The translations under genes and the position numbers were made by a program. A stretch of DNA of 44,533 nucleotides from a virus: IMG/VR virus record IMGVR_UViG_3300014039_000008. One strand, 5' to 3'. The notes under the pieces are model-generated. The model saw only the letters and a program-made list of their open reading frames with translations, searched no databases and had not been told where the DNA came from. Positions 41,108 through 44,533 of the stretch are shown here, in pieces (the first letter of the stretch is position 1; each line of letters begins with the position of its first letter).

Positions 41108-41462
41108 GTGTGTCTGCCGCGCGTGCCGGTACCTCCGCGAGGAGGACGCCGGGCGCGATGCAAAATTTTACCGGTGCGGGGTGACGGGGCGGGTGATCGA
41201 GCACGCTCCGCTCTGCGCCAAATGGCCGAGCACGCCGCTGCGGCGCTGCCCGGCCGCCGCAATCAGAAAGGAGCTGCACAGCATGGAGAAGAGGAACAAA
41301 TGGGAGCCCGGCGAGCGGGTGTTGGCGGTGTGCACGGGGACGTGGCACTACGGCGTCGGCGTGGTCCGCAGCGGGCCGGACAAAAACAACCGGTACGTCG
41401 TGGAGTTTGACCGCGACGGCCTGCGCAGCGGGTGCCGGGTGATCGGGAGGCCGCAGGAATGA
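41097..41462 (+). CDS. Cys-rich (zinc-finger-like) N-terminus plus a small beta domain (121 aa)
   Basis: GTG start overlapping the upstream gene. CVCRAC...RCGV...LCAKW. An internal ATG at 41283 with its own AAAGGAG could mean two products. Confidence 0.55.
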   Translation: MRDECVCRACRYLREEDAGRDAKFYRCGVTGRVIEHAPLCAKWPSTPLRRCPAAAIRKELHSMEKRNKWEPGERVLAVCTGTWHYGVGVVRSGPDKNNRYVVEFDRDGLRSGCRVIGRPQE

Positions 41463-42154
41463 GCGTATGCGACAAGCGATGCGAGGCCTGCCCGTATCCG
41501 GACTGCATCAACGACGAGATGGATCTGGACGACTACCAGGAGGCTGACGCAAGGGACCGGGCGCTCGGGACGGTGCGCAAGGCAAAGGACCCGCCACCCG
41601 TCGGGGGCAACACGGCCAAAAAGGAGGCGGCGCGGGAGCGCAGCCGGGAGAGGGCTAAGGAGCGTTACGCGGAAAAGCGGGAGGAGAGACTCGCCTACTT
41701 AAGGAAATGGCACGCAGAGCATCCGGAGTGGCGCAAGGAATACTATCAGCAAAACCGGGAGCGCCTGCTGGCGCAAGCGAGGGCGTACCGGGAAACTCAC
41801 AAAGCCGCAGTGCGGGCTTATAAGAGGGCCTATTATCAGGCCAATCGGGATAATTACCGCGCCTATCGTAAGGCGCACCGGGAGGAGATTAACGCCCGGG
41901 AGCGCGAGAGATACGACAAGCGCATGCGGGAGCACGGTCAGGGAGACGCGGAGCAGCAGGGCCGGGAGAAGGACTACCAAAGAGCCTACTATCTGGCCCA
42001 TCAGGAGGAGCTCCGCGCGAAAGGCCGGGAGTACCGCGAGAAGAACCGCGAGCGGCTGAAGGAGCAGAAACGGGCGTACTATCTGGCCCATCAGGAGGAG
42101 CTCCGCGCCAAGGCGCTGGCGCGGTACTACAGGAAGAAAGGGGAAGGGGCATGA
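41459..42154 (+). CDS. Cys-cluster plus tandem R/Y/E-rich helical repeat protein (231 aa)
   Basis: ATGA overlap. CDKRCEACPYPDC is followed by about 7 repeats of the AYY..N.E....Y type. A 32-bp perfect DNA repeat occurs at 41987-42018 and 42077-42108. Confidence 0.7.
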   Translation: MSVCDKRCEACPYPDCINDEMDLDDYQEADARDRALGTVRKAKDPPPVGGNTAKKEAARERSRERAKERYAEKREERLAYLRKWHAEHPEWRKEYYQQNRERLLAQARAYRETHKAAVRAYKRAYYQANRDNYRAYRKAHREEINARERERYDKRMREHGQGDAEQQGREKDYQRAYYLAHQEELRAKGREYREKNRERLKEQKRAYYLAHQEELRAKALARYYRKKGEGA

Positions 42155-42507
42155 CGGTATACATTGCCGGTGGGATCACCGGCGTCGAGGACTACAAGGC
42201 GCGGTTTGCGGCCGCGAAGCGGATGCTTCTGCGGGAGGAACAGGACCGGACGGACAGCACGGCGCGGTATTATGGCTCACCGCGGGCGGACAAGGTGCTG
42301 AATCCGGCGGAGCTGCCGGAGGACTGGCCGGGCAAGGTCTACATGGACGTTTGCCTTGCGATGATCAACAAGGCCGACCTCGTGGTGTTTTTGCCCGGCT
42401 GGGAGCGCAGCCGCGGGGCAAGCCTCGAGATGCAGTATTGCCGGTACCAGAGCAAGGCGGTGTACAAGATTGCAGAGGAGGAGCTTGAGGGGTGGATGAG
42501 AAGCTGA
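42151..42507 (+). CDS. DUF4406-like / nucleoside 2-deoxyribosyltransferase-like protein (118 aa)
   Basis: MTVYIAGGITG...DLVVFLPGWERSRGASLEMQY matches the YIAG.. and GWE.S.GA..E pattern of that family, from memory. Confidence 0.65.
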   Translation: MTVYIAGGITGVEDYKARFAAAKRMLLREEQDRTDSTARYYGSPRADKVLNPAELPEDWPGKVYMDVCLAMINKADLVVFLPGWERSRGASLEMQYCRYQSKAVYKIAEEELEGWMRS

Positions 42508-43334
42508 CTCATCTCAGCGTTTTTTCCGGGATCGGTGGGCTTGATCTTGCGGCCGAATGGGCCGGGTTTACGACCGTCGGGCAGTGCGAAATGGCAGATT
42601 ACCCGACGGCGGTGCTGGAGAAGCACTGGCCGGACGTCCCACGCTGGCGGGATATCCGTACCCTGACAAAGGAGAGTTTTTATGAGCGTACCGGACTGGG
42701 AACAGTTGACGTTATATCCGGAGGATTCCCCTGCCAGCCGTTTTCCGTGGCCGGAAAGCAGCGAGGAAAGGAAGACGCGCGGTTTCTGTGGCCTGAAATG
42801 TGCCGCGTTATCCGGGAGCTTAGGCCGCATTGCGTCGTCGGCGAGAACGTACCTGGAATCATCAAGATTGCCGCCCGGCAGGTGGTCGAGGATCTGGAGC
42901 ACGCAGGTTATCACGTCGTCGTGCTGCAATTTGAGGCTGCGGCTGTCGGCGCTTGGCACCGGCGGGCAAGATGCTTTTTTGTGGGGATCGACGATCTATC
43001 CGACGCCGAAAGCATCGGGCAGCAAGGGCTCTGGGCCACTGGGGAGCCGGAGCGCGGAGCACGACCTCCGGCGGAAAAACCTGAAAGGCTGCGTCCTGTT
43101 TGCGACGCCATGCCGGGGAGACGCGACCGGGACGCACGGCGGCTGGAATCACAGGAGCTTGCGGACGGACGTCAATGGGCAGCTGAACCCGGAGTGGACA
43201 GAGTGGTTAATGGGCTTCCCTGTCGGGTGGAGCGCATTAGGGCCCTCGGCAATGCGGTCGTACCGCAGCAGGCATACCCGATCTTCCGCGCGCTCGCGGA
43301 GGAACTGACAAGGAGGATTGACAATGGACGTTAA
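42492..43334 (+). CDS. dcm: DNA (cytosine-5)-methyltransferase; the formal ORF is intact but the conserved middle part is encoded in the +1 frame (apparent double frameshift)
   Basis: Frame 0 contains FSGIGG, GGFPCQPFS, ENV, RRARCFFVG and GNAVVP. Frame +1 (about 42987-43240) contains TIYPTPKASGSKGSGP and LNPEWTEWLMGFPVGW. Confidence 0.8.
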   Translation: MDEKLTHLSVFSGIGGLDLAAEWAGFTTVGQCEMADYPTAVLEKHWPDVPRWRDIRTLTKESFYERTGLGTVDVISGGFPCQPFSVAGKQRGKEDARFLWPEMCRVIRELRPHCVVGENVPGIIKIAARQVVEDLEHAGYHVVVLQFEAAAVGAWHRRARCFFVGIDDLSDAESIGQQGLWATGEPERGARPPAEKPERLRPVCDAMPGRRDRDARRLESQELADGRQWAAEPGVDRVVNGLPCRVERIRALGNAVVPQQAYPIFRALAEELTRRIDNGR

Positions 43335-43509
43335 GGATCTGATCGAGCGGCTGCGGGAAGCTGCGGGCGCTCTGGACGGGACCGCGCTGCGCGTCAGCAC
43401 GAGCAAATTTGACACACAGATCATCGCCGAGCTGCTGCTTGATGCGGCGGATGCGCTGGAGGGCAAGGCGGAGAGGCCGGAGCAGGAGGAGATGGAGGCA
43501 TGGATATAG
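43324..43509 (+). CDS. truncated paralogue (61 aa) of the N-terminus of the junction-spanning gene
   Basis: ATG 43324 after AGGAGG. Its first 53 codons correspond to those of the gene starting at 44393 (identical at DNA level only over the 3' 100 bp). It then diverges and stops inside the rSAM gene start. Confidence 0.5.
   Translation: MDVKDLIERLREAAGALDGTALRVSTSKFDTQIIAELLLDAADALEGKAERPEQEEMEAWI
43384..43483 (+). repeat. 100-bp perfect direct repeat, copy 1 (upstream flank of the radical-SAM cassette)
   Basis: Identical to 44453-44533 plus 59-77. Weaker similarity extends upstream to about 43304 / 44368. Confidence 0.95.
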
Positions 43510-44411
43510 GAGACCGGAGAATCGCGAGGGTGTTCCCACGGCGGACGTCAGCGACGCCGCACGACGAGTTGGCTTTTGTGGGCCCCATAACGATGGAGAC
43601 GATCGCAGCCATAACGCAAGCGGAGCCGTCGGAAATCCATATATCCGCAACGTTTACGTGGGATTTGCCGGATGTGGATGAGCTTTATGAGAGCTATTCC
43701 GTTTTTGGTGTCCCAGTTGAGGTCGGAGGGCCCGCCTTCGGTGATCGGATGGGTGACTTTGTACCGGGGATGTACATCCGGGAGGGGCTTGTATTTACGT
43801 CGAGGGGATGCAACAAAGATTGCTGGTTTTGCAGCGTCCCAAAATGCTGTAACGGGGAAATTAGAGAGCTGCCGATCGTGGACGGCTGGAACATACTCGA
43901 TGATAACGTGCTTGCAACATCTATGGAGCACTTCCGCGGCGTGTGCAACATGCTCAAGCGGCAGCCGGAGCGCGCCGTATTTTCTGGGGGACTTGAGCCG
44001 AGCCTGTTAACAGCAGAGCACGCAAAGCTCCTGGCGGGAGTGCGGCCGAAGCGCATATACACGGCATACGATACAAAAGACGATTTAGAGCCGTTGCGGG
44101 CGATGGGAAGACTGCTCCGGGAAGTAGGGATAACAGAGCGATCTAATACACTGGCCTGCTATGTGCTCGTGGGATATGAAGGAGATACATTAGATGATGC
44201 AGAGAAGCGGTGTAGAGAGGCGATGGAGGCGGGCGCTATGCCATTTGCCATGTTATATCGCGATGAGTCAGGGCGAGCACCCGACAAAGAGTGGAGGAGA
44301 TTCCAGCGGGAGTGGGCTAACAGGATAATTGTCGGGCGGAAACTAAAGGATTACCGGGACGCTCGCGGAAGAACTGAACAGGAGGGCTGTCAATGGACGT
44401 TAAGGATCTGA
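43500..44411 (+). CDS. radical SAM superfamily enzyme, specificity unknown (303 aa)
   Basis: CxxxCxxC cluster motif in TSRGCNKDCWFCSVPK. ATG after GGAGGAG. Lower GC than the flanks. Confidence 0.85.
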   Translation: MDIGDRRIARVFPRRTSATPHDELAFVGPITMETIAAITQAEPSEIHISATFTWDLPDVDELYESYSVFGVPVEVGGPAFGDRMGDFVPGMYIREGLVFTSRGCNKDCWFCSVPKCCNGEIRELPIVDGWNILDDNVLATSMEHFRGVCNMLKRQPERAVFSGGLEPSLLTAEHAKLLAGVRPKRIYTAYDTKDDLEPLRAMGRLLREVGITERSNTLACYVLVGYEGDTLDDAEKRCREAMEAGAMPFAMLYRDESGRAPDKEWRRFQREWANRIIVGRKLKDYRDARGRTEQEGCQWTLRI

Positions 44412-44533
44412 TCGAGCGGTTGCGGGATGCTGCAGCCGCTCTGGACGGGACTGCGCTGCGCGTCAGCACGAGCAAATTTGACACACAGATCATCGCCGAG
44501 CTGCTGCTTGATGCGGCGGATGCGCTGGAGGGC
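44393..44533 (+). CDS. 5' portion of the junction-spanning CDS (continues at base 59)
   Basis: ATG 44393 after CAGGAGGG. MDVKDLIERLRDAAAALDGTALRVSTSKFDTQIIAELLLDAADALEG. Confidence 0.7.
   Translation, partial: MDVKDLIERLRDAAAALDGTALRVSTSKFDTQIIAELLLDAADALEG
44453..44533 (+). repeat. 100-bp perfect direct repeat, copy 2 (downstream flank of the radical-SAM cassette; continues at 59-77)
   Basis: Identical to 43384-43464, and onward across the junction. Confidence 0.95.

What the first reader, a model, noticed from the sequence alone, without database searches (positions are those of the whole stretch)
42975..43247. Cytosine methyltransferase with a hidden double frameshift: conserved target-recognition region lies in the +1 frame
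The 280-codon ORF is formally intact. The hallmark motifs are nevertheless split between frames. Frame 0 gives FSGIGG, GGFPCQPFS, ENV and RRARCFFVG up to nt ~42986, and again RALGNAVVP from ~43240. In between, frame 0 reads an implausible R/E/P/A-rich string. Frame +1 reads TIYPTPKASGSKGSGP...ATPCRGDATG...GQLNPEWTEWLMGFPVGW, the pattern I know from many phage C5-methyltransferases, and it has clearly higher GC3. The first switch coincides with a T6-G4 homopolymer pair (42975-42986) and the second with GGGCCC (43240-43245). There are three options. It could be two homopolymer sequencing errors. It could be a gene inactivated by compensating indels and kept open only by high GC. Or it could be slippage-controlled (phase-variable or recoded) expression of the methylase.
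Basis: seen in the sequence. Interest (0 to 1): 0.65.

Follow-up and report, generated by a model that had tools for sequence, protein, structure and literature searches.

The report
Methylase gene hiding a second gene
The supposed double frameshift in this phage cytosine methyltransferase gene is a complete second gene nested in the +1 reading frame, an arrangement known experimentally from the two-subunit enzyme M.EcoHK31I and found here across thousands of phage and prophage methylases.

Summary

- **The two genes.** The 280-codon methyltransferase ORF ("alpha", 42492-43334) is intact. It is conserved end to end in more than 100 protein clusters from independent assemblies. Nested inside it in the +1 frame is a 208-codon ORF ("beta", 42682-43308) with its own AAGGAG ribosome-binding site and ATG.
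- **How widespread it is.** The same nested ORF occurs in nearly all of about 160 related loci examined, with GC from 41 to 70%. These include cultured phages of Paenibacillus, Lactobacillus, Salmonella, Burkholderia and Mycobacterium, and prophages in many bacterial phyla.
- **Evidence for selection on both frames.** Given alpha's protein, the +1 frame lacks the 2-12 stop codons expected. Given beta's protein, alpha's middle region lacks the 3-10 expected. [quoted passage not shown]
- **Evidence against slippage.** No slippery site is conserved. One free-standing beta copy exists.
- **Closest precedent.** M.EcoHK31I has alpha carrying motifs I-VIII and X. Its beta carries motif IX and is encoded wholly inside alpha in another frame. 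Both chains are required for activity.
- **Most likely mechanism.** A two-polypeptide C5-methyltransferase. This is inferred, not shown. Homology to M.EcoHK31I and the function of beta remain untested.

The parts
42492..43334 (+). alpha ORF (frame 0, 280 aa, GTG start). C5-methyltransferase chain with motifs I-VIII, a low-complexity spacer and motif X.
   Evidence: ORF list. Pfam PF00145 at 8.8e-36 over residues 7-170, and TIGR00675. phrog_363 at 257 bits end to end. More than 100 homologous clusters at 96-100% coverage.
42682..43308 (+). beta ORF (frame +1, 208 aa, ATG start), nested entirely inside alpha. It has an N-terminal domain, two xPTP repeats and a C-terminal LNPEWTEWLMGFPVGW motif.
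   Evidence: ORF list. phrog_1008 at 7.5e-19. No stops against 3.7 expected. Homologous nested ORFs in about 150 of 160 related loci. 42,559 representative clusters match the family profile.
42669..42684 (+). Shine-Dalgarno AAGGAG (42669-42674), a 7-nt spacer and the beta start codon ATG (42682-42684). In alpha this stretch encodes K60-E61...Y64-E65.
   Evidence: Sequence. aaaggagagNttttATG is conserved in the window's clade. An SD-like motif lies upstream of the beta start in 47 of 63 intact loci, against 22% at control positions. K60, E61 and E65 are invariant in alpha.
42522..42539 (+). alpha motif I (FSGIGG), before the overlap begins
   Evidence: In region 42507-42681, substitutions follow frame 0 only: 12-14 synonymous against 2-4 non-synonymous.
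42720..42746 (+). alpha motif IV (GGFPCQPFS). The same DNA reads PEDSPASRF in beta.
   Evidence: The beta N-terminal consensus QLTLFPxDSPAS is shared across the family (A2).
42843..42851 (+). alpha motif VI (ENV)
42957..42986 (+). alpha motif VIII (HRRARCFFVG).
   Evidence: The T-run is not conserved outside close relatives.
42987..43175 (+). alpha spacer (residues 166-228). Low complexity, hypervariable in sequence and length, but always kept open.
   Evidence: Alignment A1. Frame-0 counts are 3-8 synonymous against 14-25 non-synonymous. Given beta's protein, the alpha frame has no stops against 2.9-10 expected in 9 of 10 loci. The spacer reaches about 250 aa in L087.
42997..43119 (+). beta repeat region: YPTPKAS (42997-43017) and FATPCRG (43099-43119). 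These are copies of the family's WPTPxAxD repeat.
   Evidence: Relatives carry 1 to 9 repeats. The +1 wobble position is the most variable.
43183..43230 (+). beta C-terminal motif LNPEWTEWLMGFPVGW, the family hallmark and possibly motif IX. The same DNA reads AEPGVDRVVNGLPCRV in alpha.
   Evidence: M, G and P are invariant across 33 and 121 sequences. Low variability at all three codon positions. The best local match on M.HhaI and M.HaeIII falls on (M)G[FY]PD of motif IX, with weak statistics.
43245..43265 (+). alpha motif X (LGNAVVP). It overlaps the beta tail PSAMRSY. The GGGCCC at 43240-43245 lies just upstream.

Best explanation
The locus holds two genes written over each other.

**Alpha (42492-43334, frame 0).** It encodes the catalytic and AdoMet-binding part of a C5-cytosine methyltransferase: motifs I-VIII, then a spacer, then motif X.

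**Beta (42682-43308, frame +1).** It is translated independently from its own Shine-Dalgarno sequence and ATG inside alpha. It encodes a 208-aa protein with three parts:
- a conserved N-terminal domain;
- xPTP repeats, which occupy the place of the variable or target-recognition region;
- a C-terminal LNPxWVEWLMGFPxGW motif that resembles motif IX.

**Division of constraint.** Each frame is constrained where its own product matters. Alpha is constrained over I-VIII and X, and beta over the variable region. Alpha's middle segment is only a translated tether, whose sequence is dictated by beta.

**Proposed function.** By analogy with M.EcoHK31I, the two chains associate to form the active enzyme.
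- *Shown here:* both ORFs are kept open and conserved across a very large family, and each has the signature of selection.
- *Inferred:* the two chains form a complex, beta supplies motif IX and target recognition, and both are required for methylation.
For: 1. **Beta is kept open.** Resampling alpha's synonymous codons predicts 2.4-12 stops in the +1 frame; none is observed. P(0) is at most 0.013 in 16 of 17 loci, and the +2 frame behaves as expected.
2. **Alpha's spacer is kept open.** Given beta's protein, none of the 2.9-10 expected stops is present in 9 of 10 loci.
3. **Beta has its own start.** ATG lies at -16 codons from PCQ in most loci, with an SD-like motif in 47 of 63 against 22% at control positions. 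A subgroup lacking that ATG stays open back to an ATG 4 nt after alpha's own start (ATGAATG). Salmonella phage SEN5, Burkholderia phage BcepC6B and Mycobacterium phage KBG also have SD plus a start codon.
4. **The arrangement is widespread.** Both ORFs pass strict motif checks in 63 of 79 viral loci. In bacterial genome loci, 72 of 80 are nested +1, and four of the eight exceptions proved nested on inspection. Cultured phages include Leyra, where both ORFs are annotated, plus Lc-Nu, R9.1, SEN5, BcepC6B and KBG.
5. **Constraint is a mosaic**.
6. **Beta evolves as a protein in its own right.** It has 1 to 9 repeats, and extra repeats lie upstream of motif IV in L088, with alpha carrying matching low-complexity inserts. 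A free-standing paralogue in L162 has stops throughout the other two frames.
7. **The family is very large.** 42,559 representative clusters match at E <= 1e-3 and 3,987 at E <= 1e-30. It corresponds to phrog_1008.
8. **There is an experimental precedent.** In M.EcoHK31I, beta lies entirely within alpha in another frame. Alpha carries I-VIII and X, beta carries IX, and both are needed in vitro and in vivo. Deleting beta's N-terminus weakens association with alpha (PMC2836561 and PMC3404938).
Against: - There is no direct evidence of translation of either frame in this phage, and none of an alpha-beta complex.
- Homology to M.EcoHK31I could not be tested, because its sequence was not obtainable here.
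- The motif IX identity of beta's C-terminus is not statistically supported. Pfam gave no hit, nor did PDB profile searches. The targeted test gave 3 of 1500 shuffles for HhaI but 321 of 1500 for HaeIII.
- AlphaFold models were poor. Beta reached pLDDT 58, with only residues 45-90 and 165-205 confident. Alpha reached pLDDT 37. The fold search found nothing.
- In the window's own clade, beta's N-terminal domain changes faster than alpha over the same DNA: 4-7 synonymous against 13-20 non-synonymous.
- For M.EcoHK31I the literature places the target-recognition domain in alpha, not beta.
- About 5 of 80 viral loci carry 1-nt indels at homopolymers that rearrange the frames.
Confidence: 0.78

Rival explanations
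1. Programmed ribosomal frameshifting or transcriptional slippage, 0 to +1 near motif VIII and perhaps back before motif X, yields a single canonical chain I-VIII-TRD-IX(-X). The homopolymers act as slip sites or phase-variation switches.
For: - T6-G4 sits exactly where the frame of selection changes.
- L021 differs from L090 by one T in this run (T4 versus T5). That change fuses alpha's N-terminal half in frame to the xPTP/LNP region.
- L018, L019 and L037 carry 1-nt indels at G-runs inside the repeat region.
Against: - The T-run is absent in relatives that keep the same two-frame layout.
- The +1 frame is kept open for about 100 codons upstream of the supposed shift site, back to a conserved SD+ATG.
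- The +1 frame continues past motif X to its own stop, with a conserved tail.
- L088 has beta repeats upstream of motif IV.
- A free-standing beta exists.
- The frame-0 spacer is kept open by selection.
- A double programmed shift has no precedent, as far as I know.
- In M.EcoHK31I two separate polypeptides were demonstrated.
- The rare indel variants may be assembly errors.
Confidence: 0.06
2. Artefact or decay: two homopolymer sequencing errors, or a pseudogene with compensating indels whose frame 0 stays open only because of high GC.
For: - The window is GC-rich, so long alternative-frame ORFs are plausible there.
- In the window alone, the test for an open alpha spacer has no power (0.19 stops expected).
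- NCBI's PGAP annotates an E. coli prophage relative as two pseudogene fragments.
Against: - The same frame-0 reading occurs in more than 100 clusters from independent assemblies. One exact relative protein is on 21 contigs.
- Frame 0 matches phrog_363 better than the corrected product does.
- Low-GC relatives keep both frames open against strong expectation.
- Alpha's C-terminal 50 residues are conserved in frame 0 down to 72% identity and beyond.
Confidence: 0.02
3. Beta is a real protein but not a methyltransferase subunit. It would be an overprinted accessory gene, for example an anti-defence factor or a regulator, that merely shares DNA with alpha. Alpha alone would be the enzyme, with a minimal or absent target-recognition domain.
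For: - Beta has no Pfam, NCBIfam or PDB relative.
- Its predicted structure is mostly disordered.
- A free-standing copy exists.
- Alpha carries all the catalytic motifs plus motif X.
Against: - Beta co-occurs with alpha across phyla and across two very different alpha N-terminal types: the GENV type and the SEN5/BcepC6B GEQV type.
- Alpha has no conserved sequence where every characterised C5-methyltransferase has its target-recognition domain and motif IX.
- Beta's invariant MG[FY]P core aligns on motif IX of M.HhaI.
- The only characterised enzyme with this gene layout needs both chains.
- The free-standing copy in L162 sits immediately downstream of an alpha/beta pair.
Confidence: 0.12

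Closest known systems
M.EcoHK31I, a heterodimeric C5-methyltransferase (Lee, Kam & Shaw 1995, as described in PMC2836561 and PMC3404938)
   Same: [quoted passage not shown]
- Alpha carries motifs I-VIII and X.
- Beta is the small chain credited with motif IX.
- The sizes are similar. From memory, M.EcoHK31I is 309 aa (alpha) and 176 aa (beta). Here they are 280 and 208 aa.
- Beta's N-terminus mediates association with alpha, and beta here has a conserved N-terminal domain.
   Different: - Sequence homology was not tested, because no sequence was available.
- The literature assigns the target-recognition domain to alpha. Here alpha's variable region is an unconstrained low-complexity spacer, and selection acts on beta's xPTP repeats over the same DNA.
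- M.EcoHK31I belongs to a restriction-modification system. This gene is an orphan phage methylase next to DUF4406 and radical-SAM-like genes.
- Here the layout is shown to be family-wide.
M.AquI, a two-subunit C5-methyltransferase (Karreman & de Waard 1990, cited in PMC3404938)
   Same: It is a natural C5-methyltransferase made of two polypeptides, split in the variable region, that reassemble into an active enzyme.
   Different: In M.AquI the split is linear: alpha carries I-VIII and beta carries IX-X. Here motif X stays on alpha, and beta is nested inside alpha rather than following it.
Fragment complementation of monomeric C5-methyltransferases such as M.SssI, M.HhaI and the GGCC-specific enzymes (PMC3404938)
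   Same: It shows that the large domain and the small domain (variable region plus motif IX) can fold and associate as separate chains.
   Different: Those splits are artificial and the genes do not overlap.
Embedded phage gene pairs such as lambda Rz/Rz1 (Rz1 lies in the +1 frame inside Rz; established knowledge)
   Same: A complete second gene sits in the +1 frame inside a phage gene. Each has its own start, and the two products work together.
   Different: The function is unrelated (lysis). The overlap here is far longer, at 627 nt, and covers catalytic motifs of an enzyme.
phrog_1008 and GenBank annotations of Paenibacillus larvae phages (e.g. LEYRA_61 and LEYRA_62)
   Same: It is the same beta family: Leyra_62 matches at 8e-74 and the window's beta at 7.5e-19. 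Both overlapping ORFs are already deposited as 'DNA-cytosine methyltransferase'.
   Different: The papers list two methyltransferase genes without noting that one lies inside the other or what that means. Pfam and NCBIfam have no model for beta.

Membership tests
M.EcoHK31I-type heterodimeric C5-methyltransferase | The alpha chain carries conserved motifs I-VIII and X on one polypeptide | tested here: met
   PF00145 and TIGR00675 match residues 7-170. FSGIGG, PCQ, ENV, the RxR motif and LGNAVVP are all in frame 0.
M.EcoHK31I-type heterodimeric C5-methyltransferase | [quoted passage not shown] | tested here: met
   Beta (42682-43308, +1) lies inside alpha (42492-43334). SD AAGGAG plus ATG are present. 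The ORF is conserved and depleted of stops.
M.EcoHK31I-type heterodimeric C5-methyltransferase | Beta contains motif IX | tested here: inconclusive
   LNPEWTEWLMGFPVGW resembles motif IX. The best local match of the beta profile falls on MGYPD of M.HhaI (3 of 1500 shuffles) and GFPD of M.HaeIII (321 of 1500). Pfam and PDB searches gave no hit.
M.EcoHK31I-type heterodimeric C5-methyltransferase | Both polypeptides are required for methylation, and they associate | not testable with these tools
   This needs expression assays or a multimer prediction. Only single-chain AlphaFold2 was available.
M.EcoHK31I-type heterodimeric C5-methyltransferase | Sequence homology to M.EcoHK31I alpha and beta | not tested
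   The 1995 paper is not held and no sequence could be retrieved. Plasmid and E. coli searches found relatives of the family but no identified EcoHK31I.
M.AquI-type split methyltransferase | Motifs IX and X lie together on the second polypeptide, encoded downstream of the first | tested here: not met
   Motif X (LGNAVVP) is in alpha's frame, and beta is nested rather than downstream.
Programmed ribosomal frameshift or transcriptional slippage gene | A conserved slippery sequence at the frame junction | tested here: not met
   The T6 run is replaced by GTATTCTTCGTCGG and similar sequences in relatives with the same layout.
Programmed ribosomal frameshift or transcriptional slippage gene | The alternative frame needs to be open only downstream of the shift site | tested here: not met
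   The +1 frame is open from a conserved start about 100 codons upstream, or from alpha's own start in one subgroup.
Phase-variable methyltransferase (simple-sequence-repeat switch) | A long homopolymer or repeat tract whose length varies between closely related genomes and toggles the frame | tested here: inconclusive
   The tracts are short (T6, G4). Four or five of 80 loci show 1-nt indels at T- or G-runs (L018, L019, L021, L037). Read data are lacking, so these may be assembly errors.
Canonical monomeric C5-methyltransferase (Pfam PF00145, full length) | One chain with motifs I-X and a target-recognition domain between VIII and IX | tested here: not met
   PF00145 covers only profile positions 3-165 of 324. 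The region between motifs VIII and X in frame 0 is a hypervariable spacer.

The most novel reading that the evidence does not exclude
The gene-within-a-gene layout known from the single enzyme M.EcoHK31I may be the ancestral, defining architecture of a very large and largely unannotated clade of phage and prophage C5-methyltransferases, with tens of thousands of 50%-identity clusters.

In this reading, beta rather than alpha is the target-recognition subunit. Its xPTP repeat array (1 to 9 copies) expands and contracts, while alpha's 'variable region' is only a translated tether. Free-standing or exchanged beta genes would then retarget a common catalytic chain, much as specificity subunits do in Type I systems.
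Probability: 0.35. Interest if true: 0.75.

Novelty: new member of a known kind. Interest (0 to 1): 0.55.

Why it matters
- **Annotation.** Gene callers forbid nested genes. The beta chain is therefore missing from most annotations and from Pfam and NCBIfam. Pipelines and human readers alike mistake these methylases for frameshifted pseudogenes; PGAP does so in an E. coli prophage.
- **Function prediction.** If alpha needs beta, then predicting the activity or specificity of these phage methylases from the annotated protein alone will fail. These enzymes shape phage escape from restriction and epigenetic marks in gut bacteria.
- **Dual coding.** About 630 nt encode two conserved proteins, including across catalytic motifs. 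This has been maintained from Actinobacteria phages to Proteobacteria prophages, which makes it a natural system for studying how two reading frames share constraint.

Tried and rejected
- **Pfam and NCBIfam scans** of the +1 peptide, the whole beta ORFs and chimeric C-terminal peptides gave no family.
- **A word-indexed homologue search with only the 84-aa +1 segment** returned 3 proteins, too few to be useful. The alignment query A2 was needed.
- **PDB sequence searches** with beta profiles A2 and A4 found nothing relevant. Searches with the 'corrected' chimera and with alpha profile A1 aligned only motifs I-VIII.
- **AlphaFold2.**
  - Beta reached pLDDT 58.
  - The Foldseek search against the PDB gave no match at E <= 0.001.
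  - Alpha, with a shallow alignment, reached pLDDT 37 and was unusable, so no fold search was run on it.
- **Literature searches** for nested or overlapping genes in cytosine methyltransferases, for 'WPTP', and in frameshifting and overprinting reviews found no description of this family.
  - The M.EcoHK31I precedent surfaced only through a paper on split M.SssI.
  - The original 1995 paper is not held.
- **Attempts to locate M.EcoHK31I itself** in the plasmid and E. coli collections found family members but no identifiable EcoHK31I.
- **Look-up of P0177** (Bacillus paralicheniformis) found nothing on record.
- **Ideas considered and rejected.**
  - That the LNPEW motif and the frame-0 WxxEPxVxRV motif are one ancient motif related by a frameshift. 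In phage Leyra the two lie on different DNA.
  - That beta's N-terminal domain is only a shadow of alpha's motifs IV-VIII. The free-standing L162 copy keeps that domain.
Full report
**1. The observation**

The region was read directly.
- Frame 0 is an intact 280-codon ORF (42492-43334). It carries FSGIGG, GGFPCQPFS, ENV, HRRARCFFVG and, near the end, LGNAVVP (coordinates).
- Between residues 166 and 228 it reads a low-complexity string.
- Over the same DNA the +1 frame reads WGSTIYPTPKASG...LFATPCRGDATG...GQLNPEWTEWLMGFPVGWSAL.
- Third-position GC over this stretch is 0.80 in the +1 frame and 0.60 in frame 0.
- T6-G4 (42975-42986) and GGGCCC (43240-43245) are present.

It is incomplete in one important way. 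The +1 reading is part of a full ORF, 42682-43308 (208 aa). That ORF starts 300 nt before the supposed first switch and ends 60 nt after the supposed second.

**2. Frame 0 is not broken**

- The frame-0 product matches phrog_363 end to end at 257 bits. The frame-corrected product scores 235 bits.
- A homologue search returned more than 100 clusters at 72-90% identity and 96-100% coverage, from many sources.
- In their alignment (A1) motifs I-VIII are nearly invariant. So is the C-terminal ADGRxWAAEPGVGRVxDGLPCRVERIRALGNAVVPQQAYPIF.
- The middle is hypervariable in sequence and length but always open.
- One relative's exact protein is carried on 21 contigs from different samples.

Sequencing error and a private pseudogene are therefore excluded.

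**3. The +1 frame is a gene, and the arrangement is family-wide**

*Cultured phages.* A tblastn search with the +1 peptide hit cultured phages.
- In Paenibacillus phage Leyra, GenBank annotates two overlapping 'DNA-cytosine methyltransferase' CDSs. LEYRA_61 is in frame 0 and LEYRA_62 is nested in +1.
- Mycobacterium phage KBG gp84 shows the same +1 reading.
- So do Lactobacillus phage Lc-Nu, Lacticaseibacillus phage R9.1, Salmonella phage SEN5 and Burkholderia phage BcepC6B.

*Viral metagenome loci.* Eighty IMG/VR loci encode relatives at 36-92% identity, with GC from 0.41 to 0.70.
- The +1 frame holds a long open stretch of 155-327 codons. The +2 frame holds only 30-100.
- The stretch begins with ATG 16 codons upstream of the PCQ motif in most loci.
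- One subgroup lacks that ATG. There the frame stays open back to an ATG 4 nt after alpha's own start (ATGAATG).
- In low-GC loci the flanks are full of +1 stops, and the nested ORF has none.

*Bacterial genomes.* A genome scan confirmed 424 matching loci, of which the best 80 were examined. Of those 80:
- 72 are nested +1 by motif test. Four of the eight exceptions (L106, L130, L163, L166) proved nested on inspection; three others and one locus with no +1 stretch were not inspected.
- They span Bacillota, Bacteroidota, Chloroflexota, Planctomycetota, Proteobacteria, Verrucomicrobiota and Synergistota.

*Family size.* A profile of the +1 protein matches 42,559 representative clusters at E <= 1e-3 and 3,987 at E <= 1e-30. 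The family corresponds to phrog_1008. It has no Pfam or NCBIfam model.

**4. Tests of selection**

*Stop-codon depletion.*
- Alpha's protein was held fixed and its synonymous codons resampled. The +1 frame should then contain 2.4-12 stops, but it has none. P(0) is at most 0.013 in 16 of 17 loci, and the window itself expects 3.7 (P = 0.013). The +2 frame matches expectation.
- In the reciprocal test, beta's protein was held fixed. Alpha's frame across the variable region should then contain 2.9-10 stops, but it has none in 9 of 10 loci. The window itself has no power, with 0.19 expected.

Both ORFs are therefore kept open by selection.

*Codon-position variability.* The window was compared with four close relatives. 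The table gives the fraction of variable sites at frame-0 codon positions 1, 2 and 3.

| Region | Pos. 1 | Pos. 2 | Pos. 3 |
|---|---|---|---|
| Before the overlap | .12 | .05 | .43 |
| Overlap with motifs IV-VIII | .16 | .08 | .25 |
| Variable region | .48 | .23 | .30 |
| LNPEW / EPGV stretch | .07 | .07 | .21 |

In the variable region the most variable position is the +1 wobble.

*Synonymous versus non-synonymous changes.*

| Region | Frame 0 (syn / non-syn) | Frame +1 (syn / non-syn) |
|---|---|---|
| Before the overlap (A) | 12-14 / 2-4 | 1-3 / 14-17 |
| Overlap with motifs IV-VIII (B) | 10-13 / 5-11 | 4-7 / 13-20 |
| Variable region (C) | 3-8 / 14-25 | 10-14 / 9-15 |

**5. Independent translation rather than slippage**

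- Beta's ATG (42682) follows AAGGAG (42669-42674) with a 7-nt spacer.
- An SD-like motif precedes beta's start in 47 of 63 intact loci, against 22% at control positions.
- SEN5, BcepC6B and KBG also have SD plus a start codon.
- The T-run at the supposed shift site is not conserved.
- In L088, beta has two extra WPTP repeats at its N-terminus, upstream of motif IV. Alpha carries a matching low-complexity insertion between motifs III and IV.
- In L087, beta has nine repeats and alpha a spacer of about 250 aa.
- In L162, an alpha/beta pair is followed by a free-standing beta paralogue (2156-2902). The other two frames of that paralogue are full of stops.

None of this fits a model in which the +1 frame is entered only by shifted ribosomes.

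A few loci (L018, L019, L021, L037) carry 1-nt indels at T- or G-runs that rearrange the frames. Without reads, these cannot be told apart from assembly errors.

**6. What beta is**

Alignments A2 and A3 give this consensus:

M..QLTLFP.DSPAS..P.PGS.EAR.MTVTSG.KC...GSLV.MLL.SS.W.ST.C.LTWK...T....LLF.L.PS.P.T, then 1-9 copies of WPTPxAxD, then GQLNPxWVEWLMG[FY]PxGWT[DE]L.

- The M, G and P of the last motif are invariant.
- From my knowledge of C5-methyltransferases, this motif resembles motif IX (M.HhaI: LHPRECARVMGYPDSY).
- The tests give only weak support. The best local match of the motif profile falls on MGYPD of M.HhaI (3 of 1500 shuffles reach it) and on GFPD of M.HaeIII (321 of 1500).
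- Pfam and PDB searches found nothing.
- AlphaFold2 gives confident structure only for a helix plus hairpin (residues 45-90) and the C-terminal helices (165-205). The repeats are predicted disordered in isolation. Foldseek found no match.

**7. Comparison with what is known**

- C5-methyltransferases have a large domain (most conserved motifs) and a small domain (variable region plus motif IX) (PMC3404938).
- Two natural two-chain enzymes are known. M.AquI has alpha with I-VIII and beta with IX-X. M.EcoHK31I has alpha with I-VIII and X, and beta with IX.
[quoted passage not shown] Both chains are required in vitro and in vivo. Progressive deletion of beta's N-terminus lowers its affinity for alpha (PMC2836561).

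The window's locus has this layout. It meets the two architectural criteria that could be tested: motifs I-VIII and X on alpha, and beta nested in another frame with its own start.
- The motif IX criterion is inconclusive.
- Dependence on both chains cannot be tested here.
- Homology to M.EcoHK31I could not be tested, because its sequence was not retrievable.

One point differs from the published description. The target-recognition domain is assigned to alpha in M.EcoHK31I. Here alpha's variable region is an unconstrained spacer, and selection acts on beta.

**8. Verdict**

The finding is real and is not an artefact, a pseudogene or a recoding site. It is a nested second gene inside a phage C5-methyltransferase gene, most likely encoding the second subunit of an M.EcoHK31I-type enzyme. 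I rate it a new member of a known kind.

What seems under-appreciated is the scale of the family and its absence from curated protein-family libraries. The Paenibacillus larvae phage papers list two methyltransferase genes without comment. PGAP calls a relative a pair of pseudogene fragments. The indication that beta, not alpha, carries the variable region also seems under-appreciated.

The window is the whole 44,533-bp contig. Its close relatives come from human-gut samples and from Oscillospiraceae genome bins.

Noticed in passing
window 43291-43464 and 44360-44533: A 174-nt direct repeat (94% identical) brackets the radical-SAM-like gene. The first copy covers the last 14 codons of the methylase and most of the 63-aa ORF 43318-43509. 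The second copy runs to the end of the contig. It looks like a duplicated small gene flanking an inserted cassette.
   Followed up: partly
window 42151-42507 (+): The gene just upstream of the methylase is a DUF4406 protein (PF14359, 1.5e-21), and it overlaps the methylase start by 16 nt. An E. coli prophage relative of the methylase also sits next to a DUF4406 gene (H154). Closer relatives of the window have a PAPS-reductase-family gene there instead.
   Followed up: partly
window 43500-44411 (+): A 303-aa ORF with a weak radical SAM match (PF04055, E = 3.8e-4, below Pfam's cutoff) and a CNKDCWFC motif lies downstream of the methylase.
   Followed up: no
window 41432-42154 (+): A 240-aa ORF is very rich in R, E, K, A and Y, with repeated 'AYYLAHQEELRAK' and 'RERLKEQKRAYY'-like units. 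It has no Pfam match.
   Followed up: no
L177 1489-2658 (E. coli EC20 prophage, NZ_CP084900.1): PGAP annotates a methylase of this family as two 'incomplete' pseudogene fragments. The adjacent MT-A70 methyltransferase is marked as frameshifted. This is probably an annotation casualty of the two-frame layout.
   Followed up: no
L018, L019, L021, L037 (IMG/VR contigs): Each carries a 1-nt indel at a homopolymer. L021 has T4 where L090 has T5, right after motif VIII. The others have indels at G-runs inside the repeat region. The result fuses alpha's N-terminal half to beta's C-terminal half, or beta's N-terminal half to alpha's motif X. These may be real variants or assembly errors.
   Followed up: partly
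L052, L054, L055 (IMG/VR contigs): In these relatives the +1 product has a different order. An NPALLEWLMGY-type motif is followed by further xPTP repeats instead of ending the protein. This architecture was not analysed.
   Followed up: no
L060-L065, L068, L070, L072, L074: In this subgroup beta starts 4 nt after alpha's ATG (ATGAATG). The whole methylase gene of about 300 codons is therefore dual-coding, and both ORFs probably share one ribosome-binding site.
   Followed up: partly
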